This document shows, one piece after another, positions 15,956 to 18,949 of a stretch of DNA of 64,000 nucleotides. The DNA is from the human T2T-CHM13v2.0 reference genome, Homo sapiens, in assembly GCF_009914755.1 (NCBI RefSeq), contig NC_060926.1; one strand, given 5' to 3'. Each line of letters starts with the position of its first letter. Position 1 is the first letter of the stretch. The position numbers and the translations under genes are program-made. The notes below the pieces were generated by a model. The model made no database searches and was not told the DNA's origin. It was given only the letters and a program-made list of their open reading frames with translations.

Positions 15956-16217
15956 CTTTCTTTTTTTTTTTTTTTTGAGACAGAGTCTCACTCTGTTGCC
16001 CAGGTTGGAGTGCAGTGGCAGGATCTCGGCTCTCACTGCACCCTCTGTCTCCCTGGTTCAAGCAGTTCTCCTGCCTCAGCCTCCCTAGTAGCTAGGATTA
16101 CAGATGGAGTTTCACCATGTTGGCCAAGCTGGTCTCGAACTCCTGACCTCAGGTGATCTGCCTGCCTCAACCTCCTAAAGTGCTGGGATTACAAGCGTGA
16201 GCCACCACGACCAACCG
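15956..16217 (-). mobile_element. AluS with a deletion of about 44 bp removing the central A-rich linker
   Basis: Junction ggattacag|atggagtttcacc. TSD tgaacttctgtttc. Confidence 0.95.
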
Positions 16218-17247
16218 TGAACTTCTGTTTCTGTTTCTCAAATAATTTCTCTTGGGACAATCACTGTTAAAAGTTTTTTGTACATGCACAATGATTTACG
16301 TGTATGTGTGTGTGTATATACACACATAAACCCCCCTTTTTAATACACATTTAAGCTGTATAGATTGTTCTCCACCTTTCTTTTCTCCTTGACAATTATT
16401 TCATATCAATGTGTATAGATCCTCCTGACATACTTAACCACACATGATATTTTATTACATGAAGGAGCTATAACTCATTTCATATTGTTAAATTGAAAGT
16501 TTCCTTTTGTTTTGGTTTGTTTTATTGTCTCATTCATTGGGTCTTCTGCTGGTTTGTTTCTAGATAAAATGCTACAACAAATATTCTCGTATGTGCTTCC
16601 TAAACGTATCTGCAGGTGTGTCTACAGAATAAATTTCTGAAAGTAAAATTGCTGGGACAAAGGATATATAATTTTCTGTTTTAATAAATGTTAAAAACTG
16701 TCTTTCAAAGGAATCGTGACAATCTTCTGTTGCAGCACCAATGTGTGAACGTTTCTATTTTCCAATGATCTTGACTCAAATGGTATTTAGTACTTTCATC
16801 TTTGCCAGTTTGATAGGCGAAAAATTAAATCTCATTTATTTTGCATTTTCTTAATCATAAGTCTAATTGACCCTTTAAAAAATCTATTTTAAAGCCACTT
16901 GGATAGTGAAATGTGTATTTATATTATTTTCTCATTCTTCTATTGGGCAGTGATCTTTTTTGAAATTATTATTTACAGGGCTCTAACAAACATTAAGACA
17001 ATTATTTCATCATATGTGTTGCAAATAACTTTTCTAGTTTTTCTTTTGACTTTTCTCATTCCAAAATGTTTGATTTTACCAATCCATTATTACTTTTGCT
17101 TTGTGACATGATTTGAGAGATGTTTCCCCTAATCTAAAATTATATATTTAAAAAATTCTCCCATATTGTTTTTATAAGTAATTTAATTATGCTCAACTAT
17201 TTGATTTTCCTGAATTGATTGTGGATTAGGAAATGAGGGGAGGATAC

Positions 17248-17485
17248 ATTAATGGAGGGGAACAGGTGTACAAAAATTAAAACATATAAATTTAGAGCAA
17301 TTAACATAGTTTGCATGAATCAATGAATAAAAGACCACAAAATATGTAAGAATTTAATACAATCAAGGAAACATTTCCAATTCTTACATATTTTGTGGTC
17401 TTTTATTCATTGATTCATGCAAACTATGTTAATTGCTCTAAATTTATATGTTTTAATTTTTGTACACCTGTTCCCCTCCATTAAT
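17248..17485. repeat. Perfect 107-bp inverted repeat with a 24-bp spacer
   Basis: 17248-17354 is the exact reverse complement of 17379-17485, checked by eye with no mismatch. Confidence 0.97.
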
Positions 17486-18631
17486 TTTTCCCCAGATTTT
17501 TATGGTTATCCATGCAGGCTTTTTATTTTTGCCCTTTATAAACTTAAGATTCAACTTTTCTATTATGCAAAAGAAAAATCTGATTAAATTTAAAATAGTT
17601 TTCCTCTTAAGCATATATATTATTTTAGGAAAAACTAATGTGGTTATAATAACATAAAAGAAGATAATCTAGACTGCTAGCTTAAATTTTTTATAATCTC
17701 CTTGTTGCCATTACTGTCTTTTTAAAGATCACACCCATTTGTTAAGTTTATTCCTATGTATTTACTATTTTTGATGCTGTTGTAAATAAAATACTGTCTC
17801 ACCATGAAATTTTCAAACTGATTACTTTTACTATGAAGAAAATTTATGTCTAAATCTTTATCAGATTTGTAATGTCAATAGACTTAATGTTTTATTATAT
17901 GTCATAGTTATTACTTGTGTTACTTGGCTTTCCAAGTATACTATCATACCATCTACAGATAATTATAATATTCTTTCTTACTTTCTAATTTATTACAATG
18001 CTACTTATTTTTGTTCTCTTTTTAAATTGTATTAATATTTCCAGAACAAGGTTAGGTAAAACTGGTAAAAATGAACATCTTTGACTTGTTTCTTACTTCT
18101 ATGGGACTTTGCTTAGTATTTTGCCTTTCAATCTGACATTGAATTTAGGCTTATAAACTTTGAAGAAAGTAACGAAGATAATCAATATATTCATATTTTA
18201 TGGAGGATTTTTCAAAAAACAATAATGAAAGCTTAAATTTTTATGTCTTTTTAGTATCTATATATGTATTTTTCTTTTTGATATAGTAATATGGTAAAAT
18301 ATTTTACTACATTTACTAATATTGCATTATTCTTGAATTCCTGATATGACTTCTTAGTATATCATTCTTTCCATGTATATTCTATATGCTAACACTGTAT
18401 TTAATATATTTTGCCTAGATATTCACAAGGGAGGCTGGTCTATAAGTCTGTATTACTGTGCTCTTTTAGATTTTTGTGTCAATGCTTCATTTGATTTATA
18501 AAAATATCGTGTGCTCTTTTACTCTCTATGCACCTCTTTATTTTGAACACCATTAGAACTATCTCTTCCTTAAAAGTTTGGTAAAATTTTCTTGTGAAAT
18601 GTCTTGCACTTCTTATAAAAACTAATTTTAT

Positions 18632-18949
<318 letters not shown>

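What the first reader, a model, noticed from the sequence alone, without database searches (positions are those of the whole stretch)
17248..17485. Perfect 107-bp inverted repeat inside a heavily decayed L1M
Seen: the arms 17248-17354 and 17379-17485 are exact reverse complements around a 24-bp spacer. The outer ends are the palindrome ATTAAT, and the spacer holds a mini-hairpin (GGAAA-CA-TTTCC) next to the right arm. The right arm reads as native antisense L1M and is colinear with its downstream flank, so the left arm appears to be the new inverted copy that replaced the original sequence. Inference: zero mismatches in a host this diverged implies a recent template-switch/fold-back event or ongoing arm-to-arm conversion. 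The structure could extrude a cruciform, act as a fragile site or micro-inversion polymorphism, or give a 107-bp dsRNA hairpin if transcribed. It does not look like a MITE, since I see no TSD and the arm is L1-derived.
Basis: partly seen in the sequence, partly recalled or inferred. Interest (0 to 1): 0.8.

Follow-up and report, generated by a model that had tools for sequence, protein, structure and literature searches.

The report
One-off perfect palindrome in L1 relic
A 107-base stretch of an ancient, dead L1 element in a human lncRNA intron was at some later time copied backwards over its neighbouring sequence, leaving a flawless hairpin-forming palindrome that is most likely a neutral replication accident of a known kind.

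Summary
17248-17354 and 17379-17485 are exact reverse complements around a 24-nt spacer, far beyond chance. It is the only such repeat in the window. The arm occurs nowhere else in the genome.

The host is a decayed antisense L1 ORF2 relic. Its flanks are colinear with L1 on both sides. About 243-255 L1 profile columns are missing exactly where the 238-bp palindrome sits, so the change is length-neutral. Twenty-nine L1 relatives have no palindrome there, so the event is specific to this locus and later than the L1 insertion.

Neither arm matches the missing L1 columns better than shuffled sequence, though the test misses 3 of 16 true L1 tiles. Strand composition does point to the left arm as the copy.

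Best reading: a single template-switch or fold-back inverted duplication, a known mutation class at unusually large size. "Recent" means only under about 14-28 million years. No function is indicated. Interest is modest.

The parts
17248..17354 (.). Left arm (107 nt), probably the inverted copy
   Evidence: It is the exact reverse complement of 17379-17485. Its T/A skew is -0.32, lower than all 56 flank tiles (minimum -0.18). It has no significant match to the L1 columns expected here (563/1000 and 248/1000 shuffles as good).
17355..17378 (.). 24-nt asymmetric spacer holding a small 4-bp stem (GGAA/TTCC) next to the right arm
   Evidence: Its matches to the flanks are at chance (1303 of 2000 shuffles as good).
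17379..17485 (.). Right arm (107 nt), probably the source
   Evidence: T/A skew is +0.32, inside the flank range (3 of 56 tiles are at or above it). Its best alignment to the L1 consensus is the colinear one (17420-17454) but is not significant (259/1000). nhmmer alignments to two paralogs run from the right flank into the arm, to 17453 (E 0.0011) and 17421 (E 0.9).
16566..17247 (-). Left flank: decayed L1 ORF2 relic (L1 sense on the minus strand). L1 homology ends at 17245-17248.
   Evidence: nhmmer alignment of profile 182-1562 to 16566-17840, E 1.8e-16. The last 107 nt match in their colinear band in my log-odds test (4-5 of 1000 shuffles as good). They are weaker under +1/-1 scoring (99 and 43 of 1000). 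Traceback ends at 17247, which is column 940.
17486..18599 (-). Right flank: the same L1 ORF2 relic, including the reverse-transcriptase remnant at 17988-18509
   Evidence: PDB 8c8j_A match, E 2e-8. 17486/7-17574 aligns to profile columns 1196-1278 (L025) or 1275-1358 (L022) at 69-70% identity to consensus, with 0-1 of 1000 shuffles as good. There are 40 non-self genome matches, mostly to 17738-17792.

Best explanation
This is a locus-specific inverted duplication that arose long after the L1 inserted. One run of about 107 nt was copied in reverse complement and written over the neighbouring stretch of similar length in a decayed antisense L1 ORF2 relic, 24 nt away from its source. The right arm (17379-17485) is the probable source and the left arm the probable copy.

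The most likely mechanism is a replication template switch. In the four-point description, the growing strand leaves its template at 17247, copies the opposite or nascent strand from 17485 back to 17379, and returns at 17355.

Shown: the exact repeat, the L1 flanks, the length-neutral loss of L1 columns, uniqueness in the genome, and the absence of a palindrome in L1 relatives. Inferred: which arm is the copy, the replicative mechanism, and the age.

The element most likely has no function. Its latent properties are a very stable DNA hairpin or cruciform and, because it lies in a LINC01818 intron on the sense strand, a 107-bp perfect RNA duplex if that intron is transcribed.
For: 1. One arm must be a copy of the other: 107/107 complementary, with 0 of 200 shuffles folding as well.
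2. The host is an L1 ORF2 relic on the minus strand.
3. Flanks are colinear with L1 profiles. The left flank ends at column 940 (L025 profile) or 1031 (L022). The right flank resumes at column 1196 or 1275. So 255 or 243 columns are absent where 238 nt of palindrome stand.
4. Among copies passing my filters, the same interval measures 197, 251 and 263 nt in 3 of 4; the fourth gives 669.
5. The L1 family has no palindrome here. The consensus self-complement score is at chance (213/500 and 473/500 shuffles as good). The 29 copies score 11-29, against 209 for the window.
6. There is no other copy of the arm in the genome or the window.
7. Polarity: on the + strand the L1 flanks are T-rich (skew +0.15, sd 0.115, 56 tiles). 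The right arm fits at +0.32. The left arm at -0.32 lies below all 56 tiles.
8. Template switches are documented to create perfect inverted repeats and hairpins in one step in primate genomes, also without a pre-existing repeat (passages of PMC5453318 and PMC10710096). They are enriched in AT-rich DNA (passages of PMC7954356). This arm is 74% A+T.
Against: - Neither arm is demonstrably L1-derived, which a purely local copy predicts for the source arm. Band-limited profile tests give 248-831 of 1000 shuffles as good for all arm and orientation combinations. Anchored extension from both junctions is at chance. Pairwise colinearity is 3 of 29 (+) and 0 of 29 (-), against about 3.6 expected. Power is limited, since 3 of 16 genuine 107-nt L1 tiles also score z<1, including the two next to the left arm. 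The result remains negative.
- The skew argument assumes the arm is local sequence.
- 107 nt is longer than the events described in the passages I read. PMC10710096 screened stems of 30-55 nt.
- A four-point switch does not require length neutrality, so that feature is not explained by the mechanism.
- No outgroup, second assembly or reads could be examined.
Confidence: 0.62

Rival explanations
1. The same inverted duplication was made during double-strand-break repair rather than at a replication fork. A resected 3' end snapped back on itself, copied about 107 nt of its own strand, and was then joined to the other end with loss of about 110-130 nt (polymerase-theta-type templated insertion or fold-back synthesis).
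For: The product (one arm native, an inverted copy beside it, host sequence lost) is identical to what is seen. 4 of the 6 bases outside the arms are complementary, which could be junction microhomology. Snap-back at short inverted repeats is described in the review passages of PMC7999016.
Against: From recall, templated insertions of this type are usually much shorter than 107 nt. The spacer's small stem is not placed where a simple snap-back would put it, because 12 unpaired nt lie on one side only. Sequence alone cannot separate this from a replicative switch.
Confidence: 0.15
2. This is an old palindrome, whatever its origin, whose arms are kept identical by repeated arm-to-arm correction (hairpin-templated repair or repeated template switching). 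On this reading, perfect identity says nothing about age.
For: The arms show no recognisable L1 signal although the flanks do, as if the block had its own history. Template switching between imperfect arms is known to homogenise them (PMC5453318 passages; abstracts only of PMC8604942 and PMC13100816).
Against: L1 relatives show no precursor palindrome at this place. Correction would have to have removed every difference over 107 bp. The left arm's composition looks like a plain reverse copy of T-rich local sequence.
Confidence: 0.1
3. A foreign palindromic element (a MITE-like DNA transposon or other palindromic DNA) was inserted, together with an unrelated deletion of L1 sequence.
For: L1 homology cannot be shown inside the block. 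The ends read A-TTAA-T, so a palindromic TA or TTAA target duplication cannot be ruled out from sequence.
Against: The genome holds no second copy of the arm (1 candidate, self only). An insertion would split L1, not remove 243-255 columns and refill them with 238 nt. From recall, DNA transposons have been inactive in the human lineage for tens of millions of years, which does not fit flawless arms. No Dfam library was available to test family membership.
Confidence: 0.08
4. It is an assembly artefact of this genome build.
For: Only one assembly could be examined. No independent contig with the flank was found (0 matches in genome contigs and in viral contigs). Those collections are not expected to hold this locus.
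Against: The palindrome is short and internal, with distinct unique flanks that are colinear in one L1. From recall, known long-read chimeras are read-scale fold-backs, not 238-bp inserts.
Confidence: 0.03

Closest known systems
Short-range template-switch mutations (four-point model; Loytynoja & Goldman 2017, PMC5453318; Monttinen et al. 2023, PMC10710096)
   Same: A stretch is replaced by the exact reverse complement of sequence a few tens of bases away, making a perfect hairpin in one step. It occurs in AT-rich DNA, in an intron, with no pre-existing repeat needed.
   Different: The arm is 107 nt, while the passages I read deal with events of tens of bases (stems of 30-55 nt were screened). 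The ancestral state, which defines such calls, could not be seen here.
Quasipalindrome correction (Ripley model, as summarised in PMC5453318)
   Same: The product is a perfect inverted repeat, and the change keeps the length.
   Different: That model needs a near-perfect repeat beforehand. L1 relatives show none at this place.
PATRRs, the palindromic AT-rich repeats at translocation breakpoints (review PMC7999016)
   Same: It is an AT-rich, near-perfect, single-locus palindrome able to form a hairpin or cruciform.
   Different: From recall, PATRRs are several hundred bp and essentially spacer-less. This one is 238 bp with a 24-nt asymmetric spacer. No instability or polymorphism data exist for it.
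MITE-type palindromic DNA transposons and the hairpin miRNA genes derived from them
   Same: It is a short element made almost wholly of two inverted arms, and it scores weakly against miRNA hairpin models.
   Different: It is single-copy. It replaces host sequence instead of interrupting it. Rfam scores are far below threshold (39.5 against 86 bits at best).

Membership tests
Template-switch mutation (four-point model) | A segment that is the exact reverse complement of nearby sequence on the same chromosome | tested here: met
   107/107 complementary, with the source 24 nt away.
Template-switch mutation (four-point model) | The ancestral (parent or outgroup) sequence lacks the inverted copy, and a linear alignment shows a local block of dissimilarity | tested here: inconclusive
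   No outgroup was available. As a proxy, L1 profiles lose homology for 243-255 columns exactly at the block, and 29 L1 copies lack a palindrome there.
Template-switch mutation (four-point model) | The source arm is native sequence continuous with its flank | tested here: inconclusive
   Homology tests are at chance for both arms, and 3 of 16 true tiles are also missed. Strand skew favours the right arm as native.
MITE / non-autonomous DNA transposon | Many related copies in the genome | tested here: not met
   Whole-genome searches with 322 nt and 238 nt found only the locus itself.
MITE / non-autonomous DNA transposon | Target-site duplication, with host sequence intact on both sides | tested here: not met
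   The host L1 lacks 243-255 profile columns at the site. A TSD is undecidable because the ends are the palindrome ATTAAT.
L1 (LINE-1) relic as host | ORF2 reverse-transcriptase homology and colinear order of flanks | tested here: met
   8c8j_A match at E 2e-8 on the minus strand. A single colinear profile alignment spans 16566-17840 at E 1.8e-16. The subfamily name (L1M) could not be tested because no Dfam was available.
microRNA / structured RNA gene | An Rfam family match at the gathering score | tested here: not met
   The best hit is mir-2566 at 39.5 bits against a threshold of 86. The three miRNA models that match the hairpin itself are all below threshold (mir-2566 on both strands). A fourth sub-threshold miRNA hit lies outside it, at 16300-16330.
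PATRR-like fragile palindrome | Polymorphic arms and recurrent breakage or translocation | not testable with these tools
   No population or breakage data were available. Only AT-richness (74%) and hairpin stability are shown.

The most novel reading that the evidence does not exclude
A single replication template switch wrote a flawless 107-bp hairpin, about two to three times the stem length considered in the primate template-switch surveys I read. It lies in the sense strand of a lncRNA intron and arose in the ape or human lineage. It may still be polymorphic, may act as a source of long perfect dsRNA (endo-siRNA, an ADAR or innate-sensor substrate), and may be a small PATRR-like fragile site.
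Probability: 0.1. Interest if true: 0.55.

Novelty: new member of a known kind. Interest (0 to 1): 0.3.

Why it matters
If the outgroup test confirms it, this would be a clean, large example of a one-step template switch creating a perfect 107-bp hairpin from non-palindromic sequence. That would be useful as an upper-size data point for that mutation class, and as a natural test locus for cruciform, fragility and dsRNA assays. As it stands, it is a rare but explicable structural mutation in non-coding, repeat-derived DNA, with no evidence of function.

Tried and rejected
- nhmmer scoring of in-script constructs (left arm deleted, right arm deleted, block inverted or removed) gave identical scores, because only the conserved anchor was reported. 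The test was uninformative.
- Plus-versus-minus pairwise scores favoured the + orientation of the right arm in 27 of 29 copies. Every T-rich query did the same, so I discarded this as a composition effect.
- I considered a pre-existing quasi-palindrome, because the left arm's inner end looks like L1 columns around 1048-1072 in the long nhmmer alignment. It is not supported: the inner 41 nt is at chance in both orientations, and the family has no palindrome.
- I considered the spacer's left half as a second templated copy of the left flank (an 8-nt match). Matches of this quality occur in 1303 of 2000 shuffles, so I rejected it.
- The first profile, built on ruler L019, contained an Alu and mainly hit the window's Alus. 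I replaced it with rulers cut to the L1 part.
- The Rfam miRNA-like hits are generic long-hairpin matches below threshold.
- A search for an independent copy of the locus by a 22-nt flank word found nothing: 0 in genome contigs and 0 in viral contigs.
- A pure-Python profile aligner timed out and was rewritten in batch form.
- Papers on LINC01818 (3 listed, listing only) and on germline fold-back insertions (12 listed, listing only) gave nothing on this locus.

Full report
**Observation.** The window reads as described. 17248-17354 and 17379-17485 are exact reverse complements, 107 of 107, and no further pairing extends inward. The 24-nt spacer is TAATACAATCAAGGAAACATTTCC. The repeat finder gives the same pair extended to 113 nt at 98%, because 4 of the 6 next outward bases also pair. 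With a base-match chance of about 0.3 that happens roughly 7% of the time (my arithmetic), so it is weak evidence at most for junction microhomology.

The strand folds at -124.6 kcal/mol as DNA (200 shuffles: -22.6 +/- 3.7, none as good). As RNA it folds at -183.3 kcal/mol (z -30.4). In both folds the spacer contributes only a 4-bp stem with a 4-nt loop, leaving 12 unpaired bases on the left side. A scan of the whole window for perfect inverted repeats with arms of at least 25 nt and spacers of at most 100 nt returned one hit, and it is this one.

**Is it a repeat family or an RNA gene?** Whole-genome searches of the window's own assembly with 322 nt (right arm plus flank) and with the 238-nt block found only the locus itself and its partner arm (1 first-look candidate each). 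A sensitive search of the 64-kb window found nothing better than E 0.05 (blastn) or 4.5 (nhmmer).

In Rfam, three miRNA hairpin models match the palindrome itself (mir-2566 on both strands). All are far below their gathering scores, with a best of 39.5 against 86 bits. A fourth sub-threshold miRNA hit (mir-297) lies outside it, at 16300-16330. So it is a single-copy structure and no known RNA family.

**The host sequence.**
- The right flank has 40 non-self matches in the genome (202 first-look candidates, 40 scored), mostly to 17738-17792. Longer colinear alignments run up to 1003 columns at 57-64% identity.
- Read through with X at stops, one minus-strand frame matches the human LINE-1 ORF2p reverse-transcriptase structure 8c8j_A (E 2e-8; query residues 31-204, which is window 17988-18509). 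The other two frames gave nothing relevant.
The subfamily name could not be tested.
- Profiles built with nhmmer from the 29 paralog loci align colinearly on both sides of the palindrome. With ruler L025, one alignment joins profile 182-1562 to 16566-17840 (E 1.8e-16). Rulers L022 and L006 hit 16568-16952 and 16638-17027 (E 2.5e-10 and 5.6e-11) as well as the anchor. The remaining three rulers gave only the anchor.

**What happened to the L1 at the palindrome.** In my own profile alignments with traceback, the left flank ends at 17247 on column 940 (L025 profile) or at 17245 on column 1031 (L022). The right flank starts at 17487 on column 1196 or at 17486 on column 1275, at 69-70% identity to the consensus. 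So 255 or 243 L1 columns are unaccounted for where 238 nt of palindrome stand, and the change is close to length-neutral.

Direct measurement in single copies is noisy. The right junction projects 245-288 nt from the anchor in 15 of 29 copies (252 in the window). Of the 4 copies passing my score filters for both flanks, 3 give gaps of 197, 251 and 263 nt, and one gives 669.

The profile is as informative in the missing stretch as in the flanks (0.53-0.70 against 0.44-0.67 bits per column).

The flank controls in equal-sized bands are clear: right flank 1 of 1000, left flank 4-5 of 1000. The arms are not:

| Test | Result for the arms |
|---|---|
| Band-limited profile alignment, right arm (+), right half of the gap | 292 and 253 of 1000 shuffles as good |
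| Same test, left arm (+), left half of the gap | 563 and 248 of 1000 |
| Same test, the two flipped placements | 500-831 of 1000 |
| Anchored extension from either junction into the adjoining arm | at chance (for example 463 and 1086 of 2000) |
| Pairwise, best hit falls colinear | right arm 3 of 29 (+) and 0 of 29 (-); right flank 14 of 29; left flank 8 of 29; chance about 3.6 |
| +1/-1 scoring against the consensus | right arm's best alignment is the colinear one (17420-17454), but 259 of 1000 shuffles match it |

Under that last scoring the left-flank control is itself weak (99 and 43 of 1000).

Two single-copy nhmmer alignments do run from the right flank into the arm, to 17453 (E 0.0011) and to 17421 (E 0.9). 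The left flank and the left arm gave no hit.

Power is limited. Of 16 genuine 107-nt L1 tiles from the flanks, 11 reach z>=3 and 3 stay below 1, including the two tiles next to the left arm. The fair statement is that an L1 origin of the arm is neither shown nor excluded.

**Which arm is the copy?** An alignment-free test helps here. On the + strand, the L1 relic is T-rich. The T/A skew averages +0.15 (sd 0.115, range -0.18 to +0.38) over 56 overlapping 107-nt tiles, and 8 tiles are below zero. The right arm has +0.32, and 3 tiles are at or above that. The left arm has -0.32, and 0 of 56 tiles are as low.

**Was there a precursor palindrome?** No. The L1 consensus of the missing stretch is no more self-complementary than its shuffles (213 of 500 and 473 of 500 as good). 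The homologous 330 nt of the 29 copies score 11-29 against their own reverse complement, where the window scores 209. The palindrome is therefore a private, post-insertion event of this copy.

**Age.** The flanks are only 58-70% identical to the profile consensus, so the L1 is very old. Zero differences between two 107-nt arms gives P = exp(-2 x 107 x rate x T). With recalled germline rates of 0.5-1.0e-9 per site per year, the 95% upper bound is about 28 to 14 million years. The event is much younger than the L1, but it need not be human-specific.

**Mechanism.** A stretch replaced by the exact reverse complement of sequence 24 nt away is the signature of a short-range template switch. The passages I read state three things. 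Such events create perfect inverted repeats and hairpins in a single step in human and ape genomes. They occur also where no similarity pre-existed (PMC5453318, PMC10710096). They are enriched in AT-rich DNA (PMC7954356). This locus is 74% A+T.

In four-point terms the switch points would be 17247, 17485, 17379 and 17355. What is unusual is the size, since the miRNA study screened stems of 30-55 nt. The length neutrality is also unexplained, because the model does not require it.

A snap-back repair of a double-strand break would give the same product and cannot be separated from this on sequence alone. An old palindrome kept perfect by arm-to-arm correction, a foreign palindromic insertion combined with a deletion, and an assembly error are less likely, for the reasons given under the rivals.

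**Context and consequence.** By the hub's annotation, the site lies in an intron of LINC01818 on the sense strand. If that intron is transcribed, the RNA would contain a 107-bp perfect duplex. Review passages (PMC7999016) say that longer, more identical arms and shorter spacers make palindromes more breakage-prone. They also say that inverted Alus stall eukaryotic forks with a 12-bp spacer but not with a 52-bp spacer, and this element sits between those two cases.

A catalogue of spacer-less near-palindromes counts 718 longer than 200 bp in the reference genome (PMC7680136 passages). Long palindromes as such are therefore not exceptional, although that catalogue's rule (a perfect central 8 bp) would not list this one. 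I found nothing in print on this locus. The searches were (LINC01818, 3 papers, listing only).

**Verdict.** The stated basis for that polarity (right arm recognisably L1M) is not shown, and 'recent' is weaker than implied. This is a new, large member of a known mutation class, with no evidence of function.

Noticed in passing
window 16000-16224 and 18624-18888: Two Alu-like elements in inverted orientation bracket the L1 relic, 2.4-2.8 kb apart, with arms 75-83% complementary in several segments. The right one gives a sub-threshold Metazoa_SRP hit. Such inverted Alu pairs are ordinary sources of dsRNA and editing.
   Followed up: no
window 17043-17202 and 17592-17698: Three 107-nt tiles of the L1 relic, two of them directly left of the palindrome, show no detectable similarity to the L1 profile (z 0.7, 0.6 and -1.0). 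The relic is therefore unevenly decayed or has further small rearrangements near the palindrome.
   Followed up: partly
window 17242-17247 and 17486-17491: 4 of the 6 bases just outside the perfect arms are also complementary (GGATAC against the complement of TTTTCC). This could be switch-point microhomology or chance, about 7% by my arithmetic.
   Followed up: partly
window 17738-17792: This is the best-conserved stretch of the relic, with 84-91% identity to dozens of L1 copies genome-wide. It stands out from the 57-64% of the surrounding alignment.
   Followed up: no
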